Of a DNA stretch of 64,000 nt, positions 3,991 through 13,097 are shown in pieces (position 1 is the first letter of the stretch; the number at the start of each line of letters is the position of its first letter). Under the pieces are notes generated by a model. It was not told the DNA's origin and made no database searches. It was given only the letters and a program-made list of their open reading frames with translations. The DNA is from Deltaproteobacteria bacterium (lineage in GTDB: Bacteria; Desulfobacterota; Binatia; UBA9968): assembly GCA_016193465.1 (NCBI GenBank), contig JACPSE010000058.1, forward strand, positions 97 to 64,096, given 5' to 3'. The position numbers were made by a program, and so were the translations under genes.

Positions 3991-6909
3991 TTATTGGATG
4001 GAGTACGGCAGCTCGAAGGTAAAAGTCGAGCCCTTCCCCGGTTGGCTCTCGACCTTGATGTGACCCTCCATCATCTCCAGGTATCTTTTCACAATGTTCA
4101 GCCCCAGGCCGACCCCGCCGTAGCTGCCGGTGTGCGCTTCTTCTAGCTGATGAAACTGCTCAAAAATCTTGTCCCGGTCCTTGAAAGCGATGCCAATCCC
4201 GGTATCCGCCACGCTGAACTCGATCCGATTTTTGCCTTTAAGGTCTCGAACCCGCACCTCGATGCTACCCTGGGGCGTAAACTTAAAGGCGTTGCCGATC
4301 AAGTTCTGCAAAATCTCCTCGATCTTCAAGGCGTCCGTTGTCATCGGAGGGAGATCGGGTTCCACCTCCCACAGCACCTTCAGGCGGCCATTTCGATTGA
4401 GCTGCTCCACGTAACCTCTGGTGTGCGCGATGATCTCATCTACGTGAAACGTGGAGACGTTCAAGGAGGCCTTTCCCGCTTCCACCTTGGTGACCGTCAA
4501 TACGTCATTGATGAGTTTGAGCAGGGTCTCAGAATAATACAGGATCTTCTCCAGAGCGCTCCTTTGCTTGGCGCCGATATCGCCAAACATGCCATCTCTC
4601 ATCAGATCGGCGTTGCCAATAATGACATTAAGAGGAGTGCGCAATTCATGCGACATGGCTGCCAGAAAATCCGCCTTCGCCTGATTGGCCGTTATAAGCT
4701 CAATGTTGGTTTTTTCTAGCTCTAAAGATTTCTGTTTTGTCTGATAGAAGAGGTTGGCATTTTCCACGCCCACGCCGATCTCGTTGGCAATGGACCCTAT
4801 CAACTCTAGCTCCTCCGGAGAAAAACGGCGTCGGAAATAGTTGGCCAGGTTTAAGACTCCGACGATCCTTGCCCTAGATTTGACGGGAAAATTGTACAAC
4901 GTTCGGAAGCCGAAGGACTGCGCCCTTCGTCCCGCAGTTACCTGAAGATAGGCGGGGTCTGTCTGGATATCTTCATAAACCAACGGTTCCCCACTCTCTA
5001 TCACCCTTCCCATACTCCCCGTGCCTATCCCCCGCCGGTATATGGCGCGGACAAACTCATCGCTCAAACCCTTGTGGGCCCTGAGATGCAGCTCCTGACC
5101 TGAGGGATCCGCCACGTATATCCAGGCGGCGTCAAACGCCAAGATCTCGCACACCTTGTCCACGCTCTCTCTTAGGATAACGTCGAGCTCCAGAGATTGG
5201 TTCACGGTGGCCGCGATGGTATGGAGAGCGGAAAGTTGCTGACTTTTTTTCACCGCCTCCTCATAGAGACGGCTATTTTCGATAGCTACGCCAATCTCAT
5301 TGGCTACAGAACTGATCAACTGGACCTCGCTCGGGAGAAAAGAACGGGGAACAAGGTTCATGAGGTCCATCGTTCCCAGCACCTTTCCCTTCACCTTGAT
5401 CGGCAAAGAAGCCAGAGCGCGATAGCCAGCCTGCTTCGCCAGTCCGCTATAAGCAATCTGCTCATAGCGCGGATCGGTCTCTATATCCTCGAACAAAAGG
5501 GCTTCCCCGCTCTCCGCAACCTTGCCATTAATCCCCTCGCCTATTCTGTAGACGGAAAGCTGCATTCCGGCCTCTCCCGCAAACCCTTGGGAGGCCTTCA
5601 ACAGTAGTTCTTTTCTCTCTGGATCCAACAGATGGACGCGGCCTGCGTCAAAGCGAAGGACCTCCAGAACCTTTCTCAGCGCCGCGCTAAGGACACTGTT
5701 GATATCAAGGGACTCGCTAACACTAACCGTCACGTCATAAAGGGCTGAAAGCTCGCTGGTGCGTTGCTCTACCTTCTGCTCCAAAGTCACATGGGAAGCC
5801 TGAAGCTCCCCTGCCATCTTGTTAAACTCCCGGGCTAACTGCTCAATCTCATCCCCCGTCTTGATTTCCACACGATGATGGAGGTTGCCGTGACCAATGA
5901 CCTCGGCGCCGCGATGCAGCTCCGAAATCGGCCTGGTGATTCTGTTGCTGACCCATACAATGATGAGCGCCCCAATCAACACTCCGATACCTAATAGCAG
6001 AAGGGCGTAGCGCTCCATCCTTTTGAGTTCGCTCAAGGCTGCTGCAACAGGCTCTTCTAAAACGACCGCCCAGCCTAGCCCACCCACTGGAGCGAAAGTG
6101 GCAAGCACAGGCTCCCCAGTAATCCCCTGGCTTTCATAAGCAGGGGTAGGGTCTGGAGATGTGGGATTGCTGAGAAATTCCTGAACCGCATGGAGGTGAC
6201 TCAGATTCGTTCTTTTTAGGACCAGTGAGGGATCTCTATGGGCGATGAGATTTCCCCGACCATCCACAAGATAGGCATAGCCGGCGCGACCGAACCCAAT
6301 CTCTCCGATCACCTCCCAGAGGATTTTCAGATTGGCCTCCACAGAAACCACGCCGACCACCTCCTGAGGAGTAACCCTCAGCGGGACCGAGATGGTCACA
6401 TAAGGCTCCGCTTTATCGGACGTGTAGACCGGACTGATATAGTGCTCCCCCTTTATCGCACTCTTGAATTTAGCGGAATCGCTTTGATCGGCAAGCTCTC
6501 CGGGAAGATAGACTCTACGCTCCGAAACCTTTAGTACTTCCAACCCCTTTCCGTCCAAAACCGACACGTCGGTAAACGCCCTATCGTTCTTTAGCAGGAG
6601 AAGGGCAAGCAGCCTCTGCTCTTTCCCTCCCAGCTCATAAAGGGTCGCAGAGGCGGAGAAATCGAGCAGACGCTCCGCCTTCCGCCGGATGAAGTCCTCG
6701 ATCTCGCGAGCAACCCTGGAGGCAACCTCTGTCTGAAGCTCAGCGGCTTCTCTCTTGATTAGCCTTCGGGTGTACATGGAGCCGGCGAGGGTATTCACAA
6801 TCAGAGCTATTCCCAGAAGGGTAAGGCCCCATATCAGCAGCCGGCGGCGGATACCACCGCTTCGGCGAGAGAACAACTGTGTTATTTTGCCCAACTCCAA
6901 TTTCTTCAT
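3991..6909 (-). CDS. membrane sensor histidine kinase (Cache-HAMP-GAF-GAF-HisKA-HATPase)
   Basis: Two TM segments, HAMP (GDEIEQLAREFNKM), two GAF repeats, H-box MSHELRTPLN, N box (NAFKFT), G boxes (DTGIG, GVGLGL). Confidence 0.95.
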   Translation of the reverse strand: MKKLELGKITQLFSRRSGGIRRRLLIWGLTLLGIALIVNTLAGSMYTRRLIKREAAELQTEVASRVAREIEDFIRRKAERLLDFSASATLYELGGKEQRLLALLLLKNDRAFTDVSVLDGKGLEVLKVSERRVYLPGELADQSDSAKFKSAIKGEHYISPVYTSDKAEPYVTISVPLRVTPQEVVGVVSVEANLKILWEVIGEIGFGRAGYAYLVDGRGNLIAHRDPSLVLKRTNLSHLHAVQEFLSNPTSPDPTPAYESQGITGEPVLATFAPVGGLGWAVVLEEPVAAALSELKRMERYALLLLGIGVLIGALIIVWVSNRITRPISELHRGAEVIGHGNLHHRVEIKTGDEIEQLAREFNKMAGELQASHVTLEQKVEQRTSELSALYDVTVSVSESLDINSVLSAALRKVLEVLRFDAGRVHLLDPERKELLLKASQGFAGEAGMQLSVYRIGEGINGKVAESGEALLFEDIETDPRYEQIAYSGLAKQAGYRALASLPIKVKGKVLGTMDLMNLVPRSFLPSEVQLISSVANEIGVAIENSRLYEEAVKKSQQLSALHTIAATVNQSLELDVILRESVDKVCEILAFDAAWIYVADPSGQELHLRAHKGLSDEFVRAIYRRGIGTGSMGRVIESGEPLVYEDIQTDPAYLQVTAGRRAQSFGFRTLYNFPVKSRARIVGVLNLANYFRRRFSPEELELIGSIANEIGVGVENANLFYQTKQKSLELEKTNIELITANQAKADFLAAMSHELRTPLNVIIGNADLMRDGMFGDIGAKQRSALEKILYYSETLLKLINDVLTVTKVEAGKASLNVSTFHVDEIIAHTRGYVEQLNRNGRLKVLWEVEPDLPPMTTDALKIEEILQNLIGNAFKFTPQGSIEVRVRDLKGKNRIEFSVADTGIGIAFKDRDKIFEQFHQLEEAHTGSYGGVGLGLNIVKRYLEMMEGHIKVESQPGKGSTFTFELPYSIQ

Positions 6910-7880
6910 TACTGCCCGATCACTTCATCCGCCCGCAAGAGAATCTCCCTGGGAATCTTGAGGCCGATGGCCTTCGCCGTCTTGAGATTGATCGCCAGGG
7001 TCAGCTTGAAGGGCTGCTCGATGGGAAGATCCGCCGGCTTAGCCCCCTTGAGAATTTTGTGCACCAGCGCCGCCCCCTGTTGCCCAAGGGCGAAGTAATC
7101 CGGCGCGTAGGTAGCCAGTGCTCCTCTCCTCACATTAATGACGAGAGTAGTAATCACCGGGAGCTTCTCTTTAATAAAGTGCTGAACGACGACGTCAAGA
7201 TTCTTGGTAATGGTTAGATCCGGTGGGAGCAAGATGGCATCTGCCTGCTTTCGAGTCATCGTGCTAATGACCTGCCCCAAGTCGTCTCGGCTCGAAGCGT
7301 TCACTTCTTTAATGGCGAAGCCCATCTTTTTCCCCGCTTCCCGAACCGCAGCCAGATTCTCTCTGTAATTGACCCCCTGAGGGTTGTTTAAAGATACCAA
7401 TCGCTTGACCTTCGGTGCTAGCTCCTTAAGCAATTCCATCCGCTTTGCGGTAAGGTCCAAAGAGGCAGAGCTGATGCCGGTCATGTTATTGCCGGAGCTG
7501 GCGTAGCTTTGAACAAACTCCAGAGGATTCCCGGCGCTGAGAAACACTACCGGAAGATCTGTTCCCTTTGTCAACTTAGCTACTGGCACCGTAGCAGCGG
7601 TAGAGGATGTAACGATTAAATCGGGCTTGGCCTGGACCAATTTCCGAGCCAGCTTTTGAATATTATCTTGACCCCCCTTGGCATTATGAAAAGCATAAAG
7701 GATATTTTTCCTCTCTGTATGGCCCAGCTCTGCCATTTTTTTCTTGAATCCATCGAAGGCAGGGATGAACTGATCCTCGGCCACCAAGGCGCCGATGTGG
7801 TAAATTTTTTGGGCGCCGGCCTCTGGCACACCCATCGAACAAACGAGCAACGTGAAAACAAAAACCAGTGCACGCTTCAT
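6909..7880 (-). CDS. periplasmic solute-binding protein (ABC_sub_bind family)
   Basis: Signal peptide; NMTGIS, KRMELLKELAP and KILKGAKPADLPIEQP..LAINLKTAKAIGL motifs. Its stop overlaps the kinase start (TAATG). Confidence 0.92.
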   Translation of the reverse strand: MKRALVFVFTLLVCSMGVPEAGAQKIYHIGALVAEDQFIPAFDGFKKKMAELGHTERKNILYAFHNAKGGQDNIQKLARKLVQAKPDLIVTSSTAATVPVAKLTKGTDLPVVFLSAGNPLEFVQSYASSGNNMTGISSASLDLTAKRMELLKELAPKVKRLVSLNNPQGVNYRENLAAVREAGKKMGFAIKEVNASSRDDLGQVISTMTRKQADAILLPPDLTITKNLDVVVQHFIKEKLPVITTLVINVRRGALATYAPDYFALGQQGAALVHKILKGAKPADLPIEQPFKLTLAINLKTAKAIGLKIPREILLRADEVIGQ

Positions 7881-7918
7881 TTTAACGTGGCCTCCCTAAC
7901 AGCGTATTTGTGCACGCC

Positions 7919-8908
7919 CTAGCCAGATTCGGCGAAGAGCGCCTTGCCAGCCTGGCGGAGCATTTCGATCCCCCGAACCTCCTGGTCAAAGAGCGGGACT
8001 ATGGCCCGCACCGACCGGTCAAATTTTTCCCAGATGGTTTTCATGTGCTCGTCCTGCATCTGAATCCTGTTGCGCACAAAATCTGGGACCTTTTCCCCAA
8101 GGGCCTGCCGATCTAGCAGCATGTTGACCACCACCCCCCCCACCGGGATGCCGAATTCATGGAACCAGCCGATGAACCGGGTAATGACCGCGATCGGGAG
8201 GGCCTCGGGCAGGGTAACGAAAAAGAAGGCAGTTTTCTCAGCATTCGTGAGGCGCTCGCGGGCCTGTCCCATCCGCTGACGAAACTGCAGCAGATAGGCG
8301 AGAAGGGGGTCCTCCTCTTTTTTCTTTGTGAAGGAGAGCATCTCCCGGAGCGTTCGCGCCTCCTCCCGCGACTTGAGCATCTTGTCCACCCACAGAGAAT
8401 AGACCTTGGACATCCCCAGAAGCCGGCGGGCATTGGCTGTCGGCGCAGTGTCGAAGACATAGACGTCGTACTCGTCCTTGAGCATGAGGTCCACCATGTT
8501 TTCAAACATCGCGGACTCTTCGAAGGCGGGGTTCATTGTGGCGGACTCCACAAAGTCCTCAGCTTTTGTGCTGATGTCGGCGAACTTGAGAAACCATTGG
8601 ATTTTTTCCCGAATCTCTTTCTTCGACCGTTCTATGGTCTCCCTGGTGTCGATCTCATACGCCGAAAGCAGATCCACTCCCTTGACTGGTGTGGGCGCGC
8701 CAAAAACCGATTGCTCCAGGAGTCCGGAAAGACTGTGGACGGGATTGGTGGATGCCAGGAGTGTCCGCTTTCCCTGCCCTGCGAACCAGATGGCCGTGGC
8801 GCCTGCCAAGGCGGTCTTGCCGACACCCCCCTTACCGCCAAAAAAAACATACTTTAGAGCGAGGTGCTCGCGGAAAAATTGCGCCATGGATGTCGTGATT
8901 TCCCTCAT
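7919..8908 (-). CDS. ArsA/Get3/TRC40-family ATPase, copy B (degenerate switch I/II)
   Basis: Deviant Walker A GGKGGVGKT; STNPVHSL; DTAPTAN; no cysteines. Confidence 0.93.
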   Translation of the reverse strand: MREITTSMAQFFREHLALKYVFFGGKGGVGKTALAGATAIWFAGQGKRTLLASTNPVHSLSGLLEQSVFGAPTPVKGVDLLSAYEIDTRETIERSKKEIREKIQWFLKFADISTKAEDFVESATMNPAFEESAMFENMVDLMLKDEYDVYVFDTAPTANARRLLGMSKVYSLWVDKMLKSREEARTLREMLSFTKKKEEDPLLAYLLQFRQRMGQARERLTNAEKTAFFFVTLPEALPIAVITRFIGWFHEFGIPVGGVVVNMLLDRQALGEKVPDFVRNRIQMQDEHMKTIWEKFDRSVRAIVPLFDQEVRGIEMLRQAGKALFAESG

Positions 8909-8920
8909 CTCTCCCGCTCA

Positions 8921-8990
8921 GTTCAAATGGTTCAAAAAGTTCAAATCGTTTAAACCGTTCGAACGGCTTGAACGTCTTAAACTACTTGAA
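8921..8990. repeat. palindrome of 9-mer tandem repeats (GTTCAAANN / NNTTGAAC)
   Basis: gttcaaatg gttcaaaaa gttcaaatc gtttaaacc gttcgaacg gcttgaacg tcttaaact acttgaa. Confidence 0.8.
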
Positions 8991-9953
8991 GAGCCTTTCT
9001 GCCAGTTTCTCGATCATCGGCAGTCCCGTGATATCCCGTTCCATCTCCGGAACATAGGCGAGGACCTGATCGCCCAAGGTGCCCTGGATTTTCTCCAAAT
9101 ATTTCTGCTGCATGACGATCCGATTTCTCAGGTACTGGGGCACATTGTCCTGGCGAAGCTCCAGAGGCAGCACCCGGTTCACCACATACCCTGAGATCGG
9201 GACATTGAAGCGGGAAAACAGCTCTGCCGCCTTCCTGGTATCCAAGATAATCATCTCCTCGGGCACGAGCACGAAGAAAAAGGCCGTGCGGCCCCGGTCG
9301 GTAAGTATCTGCGAGGAGGCATTGATGCGGCTTTTGATATACCGAAGCTCTTCGAGAATCTTGTCCTCTTCGACCGTCTCCTGGCGTCGCATGGTGGCCG
9401 CCATCTGATCATACTGGCGCATCTCCTCGCGGAGCTTGGTGATCTTGTTGATCCACTCGTCGTACACCTTCGCCATGGAAAGGTAATATAAGGCATGGCC
9501 AAGCGGAACCAGATCATAAATATAGTAGTCGTACTCCCCCTGGACAATGATATCCACCACAGCATCGAAGATCGCGCTCTCCTCCATGGCAGGCTCCGCC
9601 GAGGCGGCAGCTATGTAGCTGTCGATCTCCTCCGGGACGCGATCGAAGCCGTACATATCCAAAATCTTTTTGCGGATCTCATCTTGATACTCGCGGATGC
9701 GGCGATCCGCATCCACCTCTTGCGCCCAGAGGTTCTGCATGATGGGCACCGGCCCTTTGCCGAAAATGTCCCTCTGAAAAATATCCGAGAGGCTCGCTTG
9801 CGGGTCCACGGAAAAGAGCAGCACCCGCTTTCCTTGGCTCGCCAGCCAGAAGGCGCTGGTAGCGGAGAGCGTCGTCTTTCCCAGGCCTCCCTTGCCGCCG
9901 AACATAATATAGCGGCGCCCCGGCTGGCTTTCAAACACCTGTTTCAGTGACAT
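8982..9953 (-). CDS. ArsA/Get3/TRC40-family ATPase, copy A
   Basis: GGKGGLGKTT, SVDPQASLSD, DLVPLGH, VVNRV; no cysteines. Confidence 0.93.
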   Translation of the reverse strand: MSLKQVFESQPGRRYIMFGGKGGLGKTTLSATSAFWLASQGKRVLLFSVDPQASLSDIFQRDIFGKGPVPIMQNLWAQEVDADRRIREYQDEIRKKILDMYGFDRVPEEIDSYIAAASAEPAMEESAIFDAVVDIIVQGEYDYYIYDLVPLGHALYYLSMAKVYDEWINKITKLREEMRQYDQMAATMRRQETVEEDKILEELRYIKSRINASSQILTDRGRTAFFFVLVPEEMIILDTRKAAELFSRFNVPISGYVVNRVLPLELRQDNVPQYLRNRIVMQQKYLEKIQGTLGDQVLAYVPEMERDITGLPMIEKLAERLFK

Positions 9954-9975
9954 AGACTCAGGAACGGATAAAATG

Positions 9976-10037
9976 GTTCGAGTCGTTTAAGCCGTTCAAA
10001 TCGTTAAACGTTTTGAACAACTTGAACGTATTGAACG
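9976..10037. repeat. palindrome of 9-mer tandem repeats, same family as 8921-8990
   Basis: gttcgagtc gtttaagcc gttcaaatc gttaaacg ttttgaaca acttgaacg tattgaacg. Confidence 0.75.
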
Positions 10038-10042
10038 ACTAT

Positions 10043-10318
10043 TTATCCCAGAACGTCGGTAACGTCCCGCTCCCGGAGCATCCTTCGCTTCCATGAGCTG
10101 ATCTGCGGCGTCACATAGGGCAGCAGCCGCAGCGAGTAGTAGGGAGGGAGGATCGGAATGCCGAGCAAATCTCCCATGGTGATGAGGATAAAGAGGTGCT
10201 CCATGCTGGCTCGCGTGCGCACCGCGTGCCGGGTCATCTCATGCGAGGACATGCCGTAAACAATGTCCTTGAGCACCTGAATGACGCCGCTTTTTTTCCG
10301 CTTCTTTTCTTCAGCCAT
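10043..10318 (-). CDS. small CstA/ArsA-associated protein, paralog 2 (core resembles cory-CC-star proteins)
   Basis: EHLFILITMGDLLGIPILPPYYSLRLLPY..WKRR; AAGGAG RBS; clear paralog of 10338..10604. Confidence 0.8.
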   Translation of the reverse strand: MAEEKKRKKSGVIQVLKDIVYGMSSHEMTRHAVRTRASMEHLFILITMGDLLGIPILPPYYSLRLLPYVTPQISSWKRRMLRERDVTDVLG

Positions 10319-10337
10319 TTAACTCTCCTTACATACT

Positions 10338-10604
10338 TCACACACCCTGGAAATCGTACTCTTTTTTCTCCCAAAACTCCTTGCGCCGGGCCATCTCCCG
10401 CTTCCACTGAGCGACTTCCAGGACCAAGTAGGGAAGGAGACGCAAGGCGTATACAGGCGGCAACACCGGCACGCCGACCATGTCACCCACAGTCAGCACC
10501 ATAAAGATGCCCTCCAGCTCGCGCCGCATATCGAGAGCGTGACGCGTAAATTCATAGCCCGTGAGTCCATACCAAAACTGTTGAATTGGTTTCAATCCCA
10601 ACAT
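10338..10604 (-). CDS. small CstA/ArsA-associated protein, paralog 1
   Basis: EGIFMVLTVGDMVGVPVLPPVYALRLLPY..WKRE; immediately downstream of cstA. Confidence 0.8.
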   Translation of the reverse strand: MLGLKPIQQFWYGLTGYEFTRHALDMRRELEGIFMVLTVGDMVGVPVLPPVYALRLLPYLVLEVAQWKREMARRKEFWEKKEYDFQGV

Positions 10605-10631
10605 CTCTTTACCGGAAACCCCAATACCCCC

Positions 10632-12425
10632 CTACCCCCTGGCAGGCGCCGGGCCAGGGGCCGGAGCTGGACGACCCAGGTATTTCAGAAAGGCGCGCCA
10701 GCCGTCGAGACCGATGAGCAGAGCCGCCATGACCAGGAGCACCGACACCAAAACCATGAGTCCCGACCCCGCTGCCGGAAGCAACCTTCCCGCCGCGACG
10801 TTCGGCCGGTAAACATTAAAGTAGAGATTGTAAGCGGTGACCACGACCGAGCCCACGGTGGTAACGTACATAAATATCATCGGTAGGCCGGCATAGAGCC
10901 AAGCCTTGCCCACCGAGGCAAGCCAGATCGTCACCAGCAGCAGCGACAGTGCCGCCATGAGCTGGTTGGCGGCGCCGAAGAGTTGCCAGAGGTAGATCCA
11001 GGTCCCTGTCAACACCAGCAGGATAGCCAAGGCAACTGAGATAAAGGAAGCCACGTGCTGATTGCGAAACACTGGAACGACCTCTCCCAACCACTCCGTC
11101 AGGGTAACCCGCATCACCCGAAAGATGAGCTGAGTCACCACGAGAACAATAACGATGAAAGCGGCAAAGGCGAGCGAAGAGGCGTAGTCGAGCGGTATAC
11201 CCCACACGCTGATAAAACCCCCGAGACCATTAGCGAAAGCGGCCACCGGCGATCCCTTGGCGCCAACAGAAACAGCCAGCAGAGCGAGAAGCCCAAGCAG
11301 AAACTCGGCGAACATCGACCCTGCACCCACCGGGAGCATATCAGCCTCATTTTCGATCTGCCTTGCCGTTCCCACCGTGCCGAACAGCGCGTGCCACCCC
11401 GAGATCGCGCCGCAGGCAATAGTAACGAAGAGCATGGGCCATAGCGGCATGACCCCTGCCGGACCGAGTTGCGGGTTCCACCCCTTAAATGCTGGAATCC
11501 GGAATTGAGCCACCTCCGGTTTAACGAACGTGCCGAGCGCGGCGCCGGCCAATCCCAGGATCATTGCCAACGCCGTAACCCAAAAACCCACGTAAACAAC
11601 AGGCTGGGCCATGCGCCAGATCGGAAGCACAGACCCCGCGTAGCAGAAAACGCAGATAGCCAATGCCCAGAAGAGAAGGCTCGGCATGATCTTCGCTTCC
11701 GCGCCTTTAAAACTAGCCAGCGTAGGGTCGAAGTAGGTCACGATGGGGGCGCCACCGGTGATCCCGTTGAGCATCTCGTTGAGCCCCTTAAATGTGCCCT
11801 CGGTCAAGGGACCAATGAGGATCGCCAAAAGAGTGATCCCCACGGTAAGGATAGTTGCGGCCAATAACCCTGACCGCCAGCGGTAGAGCATCTGTCCCAG
11901 CAAAAGGCCCATAGCGACCAGCAGGATCATCCCCAGGTGCGTTCGGGGCTGGGACTCCAGCACGGAGGCCATGATGCCCACGAAGGCGCCGGCAATCAGC
12001 AACAAATAGAAGAAGATAAAGAGAAAAAGCACCGTCCGCGTCCGCGGTGAGATCAGCCGGTGGGCCACGGCTGATAGACTATTTCCTTCGTTGCGCACGG
12101 AGAGCACAATGGCGCTGTAGTCGCTGGCCCACCCCATGAAGGAGACTCCCACCACAAGCCAAATAAGGGCCGGGAGCCAACCCCACAGAGTAGCCGCCAC
12201 GATGGCGCCTACGATCGGCCCTGCTGCGGCAATGGACTTGAAGTGGTAGCCAAAGAGGATGTTCCTGTTCGTGGGCATGAAGTCTACGCCATCCATGTAG
12301 AGGGTCGCGGGGGTGGCTCTCCTCGGATCGGATTGGATAACGCTGCGATCAATGCGCCGGGCATAACGCGTATACGCCAGGTACACTGTTACGATACCCA
12401 GGATCACCGCGAACAGGCTATTCAT
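10632..12425 (-). CDS. cstA: carbon starvation protein A family transporter (CstA/BtsT)
   Basis: DGVDFMPT..LFGYHFKSIAAAGPIVG, PMLFVTIACGAISGWHAL, LWQLFGAANQLMAA; many TM helices. Confidence 0.95.
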   Translation of the reverse strand: MNSLFAVILGIVTVYLAYTRYARRIDRSVIQSDPRRATPATLYMDGVDFMPTNRNILFGYHFKSIAAAGPIVGAIVAATLWGWLPALIWLVVGVSFMGWASDYSAIVLSVRNEGNSLSAVAHRLISPRTRTVLFLFIFFYLLLIAGAFVGIMASVLESQPRTHLGMILLVAMGLLLGQMLYRWRSGLLAATILTVGITLLAILIGPLTEGTFKGLNEMLNGITGGAPIVTYFDPTLASFKGAEAKIMPSLLFWALAICVFCYAGSVLPIWRMAQPVVYVGFWVTALAMILGLAGAALGTFVKPEVAQFRIPAFKGWNPQLGPAGVMPLWPMLFVTIACGAISGWHALFGTVGTARQIENEADMLPVGAGSMFAEFLLGLLALLAVSVGAKGSPVAAFANGLGGFISVWGIPLDYASSLAFAAFIVIVLVVTQLIFRVMRVTLTEWLGEVVPVFRNQHVASFISVALAILLVLTGTWIYLWQLFGAANQLMAALSLLLVTIWLASVGKAWLYAGLPMIFMYVTTVGSVVVTAYNLYFNVYRPNVAAGRLLPAAGSGLMVLVSVLLVMAALLIGLDGWRAFLKYLGRPAPAPGPAPARG

Positions 12426-12470: not shown

Positions 12471-13097
12471 CTAGCGAGACGCATTTTTCTCACCGACGCG
12501 CCAGAGGTAAAGGGTATGGTCCCAGCCAGAACGGTCTTTGATTGTTTCGCTTCTTAACGGCTTCCAATCGCCCATATCAAAGTCGTGAGAGACTACTCGA
12601 GATCCCGGCTGCATTTGCTTCCAAATGTTCGGCCTCAACATCAAGTTGACTTCAGGGAGGAGGTACATGGTCAACACGGACGCAGGCGATAGATCAACTG
12701 TCCTTATGTCCTGCTCGCGGATCTCTACCAGATTCCCCACTCCTTCTTTGCGAATGTTCTCCCGCGACTCCCTGATACGATCGGGGTCAATCTCAAAACC
12801 GATGGCCTTAACACCGTATTTTTTGGCTGCCGTTATAACAATTCTCCCGTCACCAGAACCCAGATCGTAAACCACATCGCCCTTCTTGACCTGGGCCCAC
12901 TCCAACATACGCTCCACAACCTCCTGTGGCGTCGGCACATAGGGGACGATTTTCTTGGACTCAAGGTCGCTCTGCTGGGCATGAGCGGCTCCTACCCCAC
13001 TGCCTATTCCCGGCCGCGCGAACTCAGAGGGAAACCAACCCGGAGTCATCAAAGAGATAACCAGGCCGATCCACAGAAACCATTGTTGCTTTCTCAT
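12471..13097 (-). CDS. class I SAM-dependent methyltransferase with an N-terminal signal-like peptide
   Basis: VPYVPTP, VYDLGSGDGRI, VLTMYL, RVVSHDF; hydrophobic N-terminus ending AAHA-Q. Confidence 0.9.
   Translation of the reverse strand: MRKQQWFLWIGLVISLMTPGWFPSEFARPGIGSGVGAAHAQQSDLESKKIVPYVPTPQEVVERMLEWAQVKKGDVVYDLGSGDGRIVITAAKKYGVKAIGFEIDPDRIRESRENIRKEGVGNLVEIREQDIRTVDLSPASVLTMYLLPEVNLMLRPNIWKQMQPGSRVVSHDFDMGDWKPLRSETIKDRSGWDHTLYLWRVGEKNASR

What the first reader, a model, noticed from the sequence alone, without database searches (positions are those of the whole stretch)
7919..9953. Complementary catalytic degeneracy in the ATPase pair, including a natural switch-I Asp->Asn
Seen: copy B has GKTA, STNPVHSLSG and DTAPTAN; copy A has GKTT, SVDPQASLSD and DLVPLGH. 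The family consensus is GKTT, STDPAHSLxD and DTAPTGH. Established: changing the switch-I Asp to Asn (Get3 D57N) leaves ATP binding but removes hydrolysis, and these ATPases form composite sites using the signature Lys in trans; both copies keep that Lys. Inference: an obligate asymmetric heterodimer with one active and one pseudo-active site, similar in logic to degenerate ABC transporter sites.
Basis: partly seen in the sequence, partly recalled or inferred. Interest (0 to 1): 0.75.

Follow-up and report, generated by a model that had tools for sequence, protein, structure and literature searches.

The report
Lopsided Get3/ArsA ATPase pair beside CstA
Two neighbouring ATPase genes probably make a two-part motor with only one working ATP-splitting site, as part of a widespread but never-tested gene cluster built around the CstA nutrient transporter.

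Summary
All six motif strings sit at the stated places.

The substitutions are not private to this genome:
- Copy B's switch-I Asn and its DTAPTAN are invariant in 80 of 80 aligned B proteins.
- Copy A's switch-I Asp and its D-x-V-P-L-G-H are invariant in 75 of 75 A proteins (the x is Leu in 74, Met in 1).
- These come from loci labelled with 11 phyla, and the codons vary synonymously.

B always travels with A. An A gene or fragment lies directly upstream of B in 79 of 80 loci, in the order CstA, small protein(s), A, B. A and B are sister clades from one old duplication.

Comparative evidence therefore supports an A-B heterodimer with one hydrolytic site and one ATP-binding, non-hydrolysing site. 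No biochemistry exists. "Complementary" degeneracy is overstated, because catalytic loss is confined to B. GKTA is not a fixed trait.

The gene cluster, adjacent ArsA pairs and a D-to-N remark were published from genome comparison in 2010 (PMC2963123). My searches found no paper that reads the pair as half-dead. This scan has reached the same reading on at least 12 other genomes.

The parts
10632..12425 (-). CstA-family permease (597 aa), first gene of the module
   Evidence: Pfam PF02554 CstA scores 350.4 bits against a cut-off of 27. The E. coli CstA equivalog NF011590 scores only 138.9 against 1188, so this is not the E. coli type. A CstA gene is present in 52 of 59 related loci that hold at least 4.5 kb upstream of B.
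10338..10604 (-). Small protein X1 (88 aa), CstX-like
   Evidence: Weak match to NCBIfam NF041419 cory-CC-star: 32.5 bits against a cut-off of 80. No Pfam family. Two X genes lie upstream of A in 45 of the 59 loci with enough upstream DNA, and one in 13.
10043..10318 (-). Small protein X2 (91 aa), CstX-like and exceptionally conserved
   Evidence: NF041419 scores 35.0 bits against 80. In 67 sequences, 35 columns are invariant and mean column identity is 74%. The core is SMEHLFILITMGDLLGVPILPPYYSLRLLPYVVPQISTWKRR.
8982..9953 (-). ATPase A (323 aa), Get3/ArsA family, catalytically complete
   Evidence: TIGR00345 scores 232.3 bits against 135; PF02374 scores 235.8. Lys21, Lys26, Thr27, Asp50, Asp147, Gly152, His153 and Asn259 are 75/75.
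9870..9899 (-). A P-loop GGKGGLGKTT
   Evidence: GKGGLGKTT is found in 74 of 74 full-length A proteins.
9783..9812 (-). A switch I SVDPQASLSD, with the catalytic Asp50
   Evidence: Asp50 is 75/75. Its codons are GAC in 39 and GAT in 28 of 67.
9495..9515 (-). A switch II DLVPLGH
   Evidence: DLVPLGH is found in 73 of 74 and DMVPLGH in 1. More distant A types carry DMPPFGH and DMMPHGH.
7919..8908 (-). ATPase B (329 aa), Get3/ArsA family, with catalytic Asp replaced by Asn
   Evidence: TIGR00345 scores 214.4 bits against 135; PF02374 scores 220.9. Mean column identity is 75% over 67 sequences, against 69% for A.
8810..8839 (-). B P-loop GGKGGVGKTA
   Evidence: Lys26, Lys31 and Thr32 are 80/80. 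Position 33 is variable: V in 68, A in 10, T in 2.
8723..8752 (-). B switch I STNPVHSLSG, with Asn55 in place of the catalytic Asp
   Evidence: Asn55 is 80/80 and 120/120 in close homologues. Its codons are AAT in 26 and AAC in 41 of 67. The last residue (Asp in A, 75/75) is variable in B: Gly in 50, Ser in 19, Asn in 10.
8432..8452 (-). B switch II DTAPTAN, with Gly-His replaced by Ala-Asn
   Evidence: Ala158 and Asn159 are 80/80. Ala codons are GCC in 51, GCG in 10, GCT in 3 and GCA in 3.

Best explanation
A and B are the two subunits of a heterodimeric Get3/ArsA-type (SIMIBI-class) ATPase with one working ATP site.

- The site built on A has every catalytic element. It is completed in trans by B's signature Lys26 and is the only site that hydrolyses ATP at a useful rate.
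- The site built on B still binds Mg-ATP, because its P-loop Lys/Thr, Walker-B Asp and C-terminal Asn are intact. It lacks the water-activating Asp (Asn55) and the switch-II Gly-His (Ala158-Asn159). It therefore stays ATP-bound and acts as a latch or sensor that holds or times dimer closure. This resembles the laboratory Get3 D57N mutant and the degenerate site of asymmetric ABC transporters.
- The pair works with the small proteins X1 and X2 on the CstA-family permease encoded just upstream. Most likely it couples ATP to transport, or gates transport, as ArsA does for ArsB.

What is shown and what is inferred:
- Shown: the motifs, their conservation, the strict pairing, the gene order and the duplication history.
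- Inferred: heterodimer formation, ATP binding without hydrolysis in B, and the link to CstA function.
For: 1. Both proteins score above the family cut-off. They are the only full-length ArsA-family genes in a 100%-complete genome. The other five of the seven PF02374 matches score 30 bits or less.

2. Asn55, Ala158 and Asn159 in B are 80/80. Asp50, Gly152 and His153 in A are 75/75. The loci are labelled with 11 phyla. Codons at all six sites vary synonymously in 67 loci. Asn is therefore selected for, although a single A-to-G change would restore Asp.

3. B is not decaying. Its ATP-binding residues are 80/80, and it is more conserved than A (75% against 69% mean column identity).

4. Pairing is strict.
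- An A gene or fragment lies directly upstream of B in 79 of 80 genome loci. The 80th contig begins at B.
- The A-B gap is 30 nt or less in 54 of 66 loci, and the genes overlap in 10.
- In 9 of the 12 related genomes with a match, both genes lie side by side on one contig. The other 3 contigs are cut or gapped.

5. A and B are sister clades (A 99, B 100, their union 99 SH-aLRT) with similar internal branching. Single-copy ArsA homologues linked to one X gene carry the canonical Asp and branch outside.

6. More distant pairs at about 50% identity (L113, L114) keep the split between Asp in A and Asn in B.

7. One B-clade representative, P0125 at 49% identity, has also lost the Walker Lys (GGKSSVGNTG) but keeps the signature Lys. 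That is expected if B's main catalytic contribution is made in trans.

8. Literature. Get3 D57 is the catalytic residue, and D57N binds ATP without hydrolysing it (passages of PMC12506534). Get3's Lys finger comes from the other subunit (figure legend of bioRxiv 10.1101/2022.06.23.497298). ArsA homologues coevolve with CstA and CstX (sections 3.1, 3.2, 3.12 and 4 of PMC2963123).
Against: - There is no direct evidence that A binds B.
- Among the best 150 representatives for B, no fused protein has a B-clade half. The two-domain hits are 27-34% identical and fall in a separate clade. So no Rosetta-stone fusion exists for this clade.
- Get3 D57N forms stable homodimers, so a B2 homodimer is physically plausible.
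- A's signature Lys21, which would point into the 'dead' B site, is also 75/75 conserved. This is unexpected if that site never does chemistry. It can be explained if the Lys is needed for ATP-dependent closure.
- Both subunits lack the CxxC zinc clamp of Get3, so the dimer contact cannot be read across from Get3.
- The link to CstA rests on gene order only. 7 of 59 loci with enough upstream DNA show no CstA gene within the locus.
- Taxon labels are those of metagenome bins, and kin are not independent.
Confidence: 0.62

Rival explanations
1. Both sites turn over, at very different rates. Asn55 leaves B a slow 'timer' site whose eventual hydrolysis resets the heterodimer, so B is not a pseudo-site.
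For: B's whole nucleotide pocket, and A's trans Lys21 that would point into it, are fully conserved (80/80 and 75/75). That fits a site which still does chemistry.
Against: [quoted passage not shown] B has also lost the switch-II Gly-His. P0125 has lost the Walker Lys as well.
Confidence: 0.17
2. A and B do not pair with each other. A2 is a conventional active homodimer. B2 is a permanently ATP-locked homodimer with a separate scaffold, sensor or adaptor role in the same CstA module.
For: Get3 D57N is purified as stable dimers and tetramers. No A-B fusion exists in this clade. Single-ArsA versions of the module exist, so homodimers were the ancestral state.
Against: Co-occurrence is strict, with tight or overlapping gene junctions (79 of 80 loci; 54 of 66 gaps of 30 nt or less). 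The A and B subtrees look alike. B's signature Lys would have no catalytic use in a B2 dimer, yet it is kept even in P0125.
Confidence: 0.13
3. The pair is a Get3-like targeting chaperone rather than a transport motor. It captures the hydrophobic segment of X1/X2 (or of CstA) and delivers it to the membrane.
For: The closest solved structures are archaeal proteins (3UG6, 3ZQ6; E 1e-54 to 1e-60), which I recall to be Get3 homologues. X1 and X2 have one hydrophobic stretch about 20 residues from the C-terminus.
Against: The X2 hydrophobic stretch holds Asp, Arg and five Pro and is almost invariant across phyla. That is unlike a generic tail anchor. The A and B segments that align with the Get3 helical subdomain are rich in charged residues (read directly from the sequences). 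The Get3 CxxC motif is absent. This rival concerns the job of the pair, not its asymmetry, so it can be true together with the best explanation.
Confidence: 0.2
4. B is a decaying or mis-sequenced copy, and the substitutions mean nothing.
For: None found.
Against: Asn55, Ala158 and Asn159 are 80/80, with synonymous codon variation. B is more conserved than A. 120 of 120 close homologues carry STNP.
Confidence: 0.01

Closest known systems
cstA-cstX-(cstY)-arsA-homologue gene clusters, including adjacent ArsA pairs of 'cluster 15' (Castillo & Saier 2010, PMC2963123; I read sections 3.1, 3.2, 3.12 and 4 as passages)
   Same: A CstA permease, one or two ~90-aa CstX proteins, single-domain ~330-aa ArsA homologues and no ars genes. 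The paper reports adjacent paralogous ArsA pairs and paralogous CstX pairs. It notes that in single-domain proteins the 'SXD' Asp 'can be substituted only by N'.
   Different: In the passages I read, the paper does not connect the Asn to one member of a pair, to loss of hydrolysis or to a heterodimer. It proposes only that ArsA homologues energise CstA through CstX. Nothing has been tested.
Archaeal ArsA-family proteins of PDB 3UG6/3UG7 and 3ZQ6. PDB titles them 'arsenical pump-driving ATPase'. That they are the Methanocaldococcus and Methanothermobacter Get3 homologues is recalled.
   Same: These are the best solved matches over the full length: E 3.8e-56 and 6.2e-54 for B, 1.3e-60 and 4e-59 for A. 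They share the same single-domain architecture.
   Different: They carry canonical STDPAHSL and DTAPTGH motifs and a C-x-x-C motif. A has P-Q-Y-L and B has P-D-F-V at that place. They come from one gene, so their sites are identical.
Yeast Get3 D57N (laboratory mutant)
   Same: The same Asp-to-Asn change in switch I. It binds ATP and is trapped closed without hydrolysis (passages of PMC12506534).
   Different: It is an engineered mutant with both sites dead in a homodimer. Here the change is natural, fixed, confined to one paralogue, and accompanied by loss of the switch-II Gly-His. I inferred the equivalence of B Asn55 and yeast D57 from the shared S-T-D-P-A-H motif in aligned archaeal homologues, not from a direct alignment to yeast Get3.
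E. coli ArsA (PDB 1F48)
   Same: Same family (E 4.1e-33 for B). It has two ATPase halves that face each other and work with a membrane carrier. That the A1 and A2 sites are functionally unequal is recalled.
   Different: ArsA is one fused ~590-aa chain with metalloid-binding cysteines. A and B are separate chains with no cysteine at all. They score 99.7 and 119.4 bits against the 650-bit cut-off of the ArsA equivalog TIGR04291.
Mycobacterium tuberculosis BagA/BagB (Rv3679/Rv3680; PDB 6BS3-6BS5)
   Same: Two adjacent, different Get3-like ATPase genes whose products are deposited together as chains A and B of one PDB entry. They are cited as 'two interacting ATPases' in the reference list of PMC10597346.
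   Different: They are only distantly related. BagA and BagB models give 31.9-50.5 bits against cut-offs of 400 and 521, and PDB E-values are 1e-7 and 6e-6 over the P-loop region only. There is no CstA context. The two BagAB papers were not held, so whether their sites are unequal is not known to me.
ABC transporters with one degenerate nucleotide-binding site (recalled analogy)
   Same: The logic of one consensus site and one ATP-binding, non-hydrolysing site in a head-to-tail dimer.
   Different: An unrelated ATPase fold and different signature motifs. This is an analogy only and was not tested here.

Membership tests
TRC40/GET3/ArsA family (TIGR00345 / PF02374) | Profile score above the curated cut-off over the full length | tested here: met
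   A scores 232.3 and B 214.4 bits against 135. PF02374 gives 235.8 and 220.9 against 24.3.
TRC40/GET3/ArsA family | Deviant Walker A GKGGVGKT with the signature (first) Lys | tested here: met
   Both copies have it. The Lys is 75/75 in A and 80/80 in B.
TRC40/GET3/ArsA family | Switch-I catalytic Asp (S-T-D-P) | tested here: not met
   Met in A (Asp50, 75/75). Not met in B (Asn55, 80/80). B is a family member by profile but lacks this catalytic feature.
TRC40/GET3/ArsA family | Switch II D-T-A-P-T-G-H | tested here: inconclusive
   A keeps D, P, G and H but has L, V and L at positions 2, 3 and 5. B keeps D-T-A-P-T but has A-N in place of G-H.
Get3 proper (tail-anchor targeting factor) | C-x-x-C zinc motif at the dimer interface | tested here: not met
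   Where 3UG6 and 3ZQ6 have C-D-F-C and C-E-F-C, B has P-D-F-V and A has P-Q-Y-L. Window A and B contain no Cys.
Get3 proper | Hydrophobic client groove; partner receptors (Get1/2, Get4/5) | not testable with these tools
   No reliable complex model was obtained. I did not search for the partners.
ArsA arsenite pump ATPase (TIGR04291) | Fused two-domain chain, equivalog score, metalloid-binding Cys, ars operon | tested here: not met
   B scores 119.4 and A 99.7 bits against 650. Both are single-domain with no Cys. The neighbours are CstA, X1, X2, a solute-binding protein and a histidine kinase, not ars genes.
cstA-cstX-arsA-homologue cluster (Castillo & Saier 2010) | A CstA gene next to ~90-aa CstX gene(s) and single-domain ~330-aa ArsA homologue(s), without ars genes | tested here: met
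   The window order is CstA, X1, X2, A, B on one strand with gaps of 19-89 nt. The same order recurs in related loci. That X1 and X2 equal CstX is inferred from size, position and the weak NF041419 match. I did not have the paper's sequences.
BagA/BagB (NF053622 / NF053621) | Equivalog score above the cut-off | tested here: not met
   31.9-50.5 bits against 400 and 521.

The most novel reading that the evidence does not exclude
The A-B pair is an obligate one-stroke motor. B's permanently ATP-loaded pseudo-site keeps the dimer poised, and a single hydrolysis event in A, fired by B's Lys finger, is passed through the two near-invariant X proteins to CstA. That would turn what is thought to be a proton-coupled secondary carrier into an ATP-driven or ATP-gated importer. 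It would be a so far uncharacterised class of primary transporter, spread by gene transfer across at least 11 bacterial phylum labels, and, according to earlier notes of this scan that I did not test, archaea.
Probability: 0.25. Interest if true: 0.7.

Novelty: new variant of a known kind. Interest (0 to 1): 0.45.

Why it matters
CstA-family permeases are widespread nutrient (peptide and pyruvate) carriers. In many uncultured soil and sediment bacteria they come with this ATPase pair, whose role has been guessed at since 2010 but never tested.

A naturally fixed equivalent of the textbook Get3 D57N 'ATP-trap' mutation, confined to one subunit, makes sharp predictions. One concerns which Lys finger matters, another which site holds ATP. 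It would also give a ready-made asymmetric system for studying how SIMIBI-class dimers couple one hydrolysis event to work.

It also warns annotators. These genes are routinely labelled 'arsenite-transporting ATPase' or 'arsenic transporter' (source names), which the cysteine-free sequences and the gene context contradict.

Tried and rejected
- **Complex prediction.** I submitted A + B + X2 + 2 ATP with X2 as the scored partner. The result was 'no answer' (0.47, 0.30, 0.28; median 0.30 against a mark of 0.32; controls not run). It counts neither for nor against binding. The A-B contact itself was not scored.
- **AlphaFold2 model of X2 from 67 sequences.** Mean pLDDT was 59.6 and pTM 0.33. Three helices were drawn, but the model is too uncertain to use, and I made no fold search.
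- **Pfam at E up to 10 for X1 and X2.** No family was found.
- **Metagenome scan for the distant SLNP-type B proteins.** The back-translated pattern was the generic P-loop. Only 10 of 80 loci (L113-L122) were relevant pairs, and 8 of those were the core type.
- **BagAB papers PMC6597400 and PMC8404711.** Neither is held.
- **The listing of cluster members for P0125, P0170, P0193 and others.** The query could not be made because the database was switched off. Each of those representatives therefore stands as a single sequence with unknown context.
- **Rosetta-stone fusion of A and B.** None was found in this clade.
- **Two fused two-domain proteins with an Asn half (P0170 first half, P0193 second half).** They belong to a different clade. 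They are independent, single-representative cases, not evidence about A-B.
- **G003.** This same-genus genome seemed to have A without B, but the contig has a run of N at A's 3' end followed by unrelated DNA. It says nothing.
- **Promoter and terminator scan.** The promoter-like sites lie inside coding sequence or at the A start. Of 11 terminator-like sites, the only one at a gene junction sits at 7871-7889, between B and the solute-binding gene, with a weak stem. It is not informative.
Full report
**What is in the window**

Positions 7919-12425 of the minus strand hold five closely spaced genes:
- a CstA-family permease (10632-12425, 597 aa);
- two paralogous small proteins, X1 (10338-10604, 88 aa) and X2 (10043-10318, 91 aa);
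- two Get3/ArsA-family ATPases, A (8982-9953, 323 aa) and B (7919-8908, 329 aa).

The gaps between genes are 27, 19, 89 and 73 nt. A solute-binding protein gene follows 38 nt after B, and then a Cache-HAMP-GAF histidine kinase gene.

A and B both pass the family models. TIGR00345 gives 232.3 and 214.4 bits against a cut-off of 135, and PF02374 gives 235.8 and 220.9 bits. They fall far short of the true arsenite-pump model TIGR04291 (99.7 and 119.4 against 650) and of the BagA and BagB models.

They are 36% identical to each other. They are the only full-length members of the family in this 100%-complete genome. The other five of the seven PF02374 matches score 30 bits or less.

X1 and X2 give only sub-threshold matches to NCBIfam 'cory-CC-star' (32.5 and 35.0 bits against 80). 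They match no Pfam family.

**The observation**

The strings and their coordinates are listed in the observation check and the parts list. Both proteins keep the first Lys of GKGG.

**Is it peculiar to this genome?**

No.
- All 120 closest homologues of B (82-100% identity) have STNP. 110 have DTAPTAN, 9 have DTAPAAN and 1 has DMAPTAN.
- A scan of one genome per species returned 80 loci with B at 68-89% identity.
- Their records are labelled with 11 phylum names: Chloroflexota (42), Acidobacteriota (13), Thermodesulfobacteriota (6), Actinomycetota (4), Binatota (2), Rokuibacteriota (2), Myxococcota (2), and one each of Verrucomicrobiota, Pseudomonadota, Methylomirabilota and Spirochaetota. Five are unassigned.

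An alignment of 80 B and 75 A proteins, window copies included, gives the following.
- In B, these residues are 80/80: Lys26, Lys31, Thr32, Asn55, Asp153, Thr154, Ala155, Pro156, Ala158, Asn159 and Asn262.
- In A, these residues are 75/75: Lys21, Lys26, Thr27, Thr28, Asp50, Asp57, Asp147, Val149, Pro150, Leu151, Gly152, His153 and Asn259. Position 148 is Leu in 74 and Met in 1.

At all six diagnostic codons the third base varies while the amino acid does not. Examples are B Asn55 (AAT 26, AAC 41) and A Asp50 (GAC 39, GAT 28) in 67 loci. Asn is only one transition away from Asp and never reverted, so it is actively maintained.

B is also the slower-evolving partner, with mean column identity of 75% against 69% for A.

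Only 'GKTA' is not a trait. That position is Val in 68, Ala in 10 and Thr in 2.

The last Asp of S-L-S-D is 75/75 in A but free to vary in B (Gly 50, Ser 19, Asn 10).

**Pairing and context**

An A gene or fragment lies directly upstream of B in 79 of 80 loci. The 80th contig starts at B. A is full-length in 74 loci.

In 66 loci with both genes complete, the A-B gap is 30 nt or less in 54, and the genes overlap in 10.

Of 59 loci with at least 4.5 kb upstream of B, 52 contain a CstA gene. 45 have two X genes upstream of A, and 13 have one.

Among 40 relatives of the window's genome, 12 have a match.
- In 9 of them, A and B lie side by side on one contig.
- The other 3 contigs are cut, frameshifted or gapped.
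- One of these, G003, has a run of N at the 3' end of A.

The module is patchy. It was found in 12 of 24 genomes of the family and in 0 of 16 genomes of two sister families. It is nonetheless 70-90% identical across phyla, which points to lateral spread as a unit.

**History**

I built a quick maximum-likelihood tree of 80 rows (LG+G4, SH-aLRT support only). The rows were:
- 10 of the 67 A/B pairs;
- 4 distant pair members from metagenomes;
- 9 single X-linked ArsA homologues;
- 6 Asn-type and 1 A-type representatives;
- 10 canonical single-domain representatives;
- 30 halves of 15 fused proteins.

The tree places all Asn-type single-domain proteins in one clade (support 100). The A types form another clade (99), and the two are joined as sisters (99). 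Single-copy ArsA homologues that sit next to one X gene, in some loci with CstA as well, have a canonical Asp (L123, L127, L139 and others). They branch just outside.

So one ancient duplication gave A and B, and the Asp-to-Asn change sits at the base of B.

Distant pairs at about 50% identity keep the split.
- L114 has A with DMMPHGH and B with STNP plus DTAPVAH.
- L113 has A with DMPPFGH and B with SLNP plus DCAAVAN. This B copy has one in-frame stop.
- Other distant B types read DTAPVAL, DTAAVAN, DTAAIGG and DTASVVN.

What defines the A lineage is D-x-x-P-x-G-H plus the switch-I Asp. What defines the B lineage is the switch-I Asn (Ser in one representative, P0160) and loss of the Gly.

P0125, a B-clade representative at 49% identity, has also lost the Walker Lys (GGKSSVGNTG) while keeping the signature Lys. 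Its context could not be looked up.

**Interpretation**

Passages of PMC12506534 call D57 the catalytic residue of Get3. They describe D57N as binding ATP 'without subsequent hydrolysis', trapped in the closed state.

A figure legend in bioRxiv 10.1101/2022.06.23.497298 shows Get3's Lys finger coming from the other subunit onto the alpha- and gamma-phosphates.

B Asn55 aligns with the Asp of S-T-D-P-A-H in the two closest solved structures. I inferred the equivalence with yeast D57 from that motif, not from a direct alignment.

The most economical reading has four parts:
- A and B form a heterodimer.
- The A site is catalytic and is completed by B's Lys26.
- The B site binds ATP but does not, or barely does, hydrolyse it.
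- The pair acts on the CstA-X assembly.

A has lost nothing with a known catalytic role, and its unusual switch-II residues also vary within the A lineage.

Unequal halves are common in this family. In the 150 best representatives, many fused two-domain proteins have one DTAPTGH half and one half ending in Gly-Leu, Gly-Ile or Gly-Val. 29 of 202 domains end in Gly plus a non-His residue. Two of these proteins carry an independent Asn in one half.

**What remains open**

- Nothing here distinguishes an A-B dimer from A2 plus B2.
- There is no A-B fusion in this clade.
- A's own signature Lys is conserved although it would point into the 'dead' site.
- Both proteins lack the Get3 C-x-x-C zinc motif and have no cysteine, so neither the Get3 zinc clamp nor ArsA's metalloid site applies.
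- The role of the X proteins is unknown. X2 is extraordinarily conserved, with 35 invariant columns in 67 sequences. That suggests tight protein contacts rather than a simple membrane anchor.

**Known or new?**

Castillo & Saier 2010 (PMC2963123; passages and sections 3.1, 3.2, 3.12 and 4 read) described the following:
- cstA-cstX-arsA-homologue operons;
- adjacent ArsA pairs in two organisms;
- paralogous CstX pairs;
- the point that in single-domain proteins the Asp of 'SXD' 'can be substituted only by N'.

They proposed that the ATPase energises CstA through CstX. In the passages I read, they did not link the Asn to one member of a pair or to a dead site.

Four full-text searches found no other paper on this:
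- ArsA / CstA / carbon starvation / Get3;
- CstX;
- Get3 / heterodimer / bacterial / ArsA / catalytically inactive;
- Rv3679 / Rv3680.

Subscription journals are mostly outside that library.

Heterodimeric Get3-like ATPases as such are known. BagA and BagB are deposited together in PDB 6BS3.

This scan has already reported the same pair, with the same reading, in at least 12 other genomes. I reached my reading before seeing those notes and re-derived it from my own calls.

**Verdict**

This is a real, strongly selected and widespread feature. It is a new variant of a known kind: a Get3/ArsA pair with one naturally hydrolysis-dead subunit, inside a gene cluster predicted in 2010. It is of moderate interest, mainly because it is untested and gives crisp predictions.

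Noticed in passing
window 3991-7880 (minus strand): An ABC-type solute-binding protein gene (PF04392) starts 38 nt after B. It is followed by a dCache-HAMP-GAF-GAF histidine kinase gene whose start overlaps the binding-protein gene's stop at 6909. The three closest related loci (L033-L035) also have binding-protein genes (two each) and a kinase gene downstream of B. This may be a lineage-specific sensory add-on to the module.
   Followed up: partly
L038, L040, L043, L049, L050, L052, L056, L060, L066, L069 and others (12 of 80 loci): A third X-like small gene lies downstream of B, mainly in Chloroflexota loci. The window has none.
   Followed up: partly
L038:2194-2589 and 21 other loci; L067:7987-8634 and 11 other loci: Two accessory genes occur in some loci. 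One is a ~131-aa protein with a C-T-H-C motif upstream of CstA (22 loci). The other is a ~215-aa membrane protein, apparently with TPR repeats, downstream of B (12 loci). With these queries the first was not found in the window's genome, and the second gave only a marginal hit elsewhere.
   Followed up: partly
L113:2169-3176: A distant B-type gene (SLNP, DCAAVAN) carries one in-frame stop between the P-loop and switch I. This could be a sequencing error, a pseudogene or recoding.
   Followed up: no
protein P0125 (representative, 326 aa): A B-clade protein whose P-loop reads GGKSSVGNTG. The Walker Lys and two Gly are lost, while the signature Lys and STNP are kept.
   Followed up: partly
L020 (G003:C222): A same-genus genome has CstA, X1, X2 and A (with DMVPLGH), then a run of N inside the 3' end of A, then an unrelated gene. 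This looks like an assembly join.
   Followed up: yes
window 7919-9953: Public sources name close homologues of B 'arsenite-transporting ATPase' or 'arsenic transporter'. The cysteine-free sequences and the CstA context make that annotation very unlikely.
   Followed up: yes
window 12471-13097 (minus strand): A 208-aa class-I methyltransferase-like gene with an N-terminal hydrophobic segment lies just upstream of CstA. It was not seen as part of the module in other loci.
   Followed up: no
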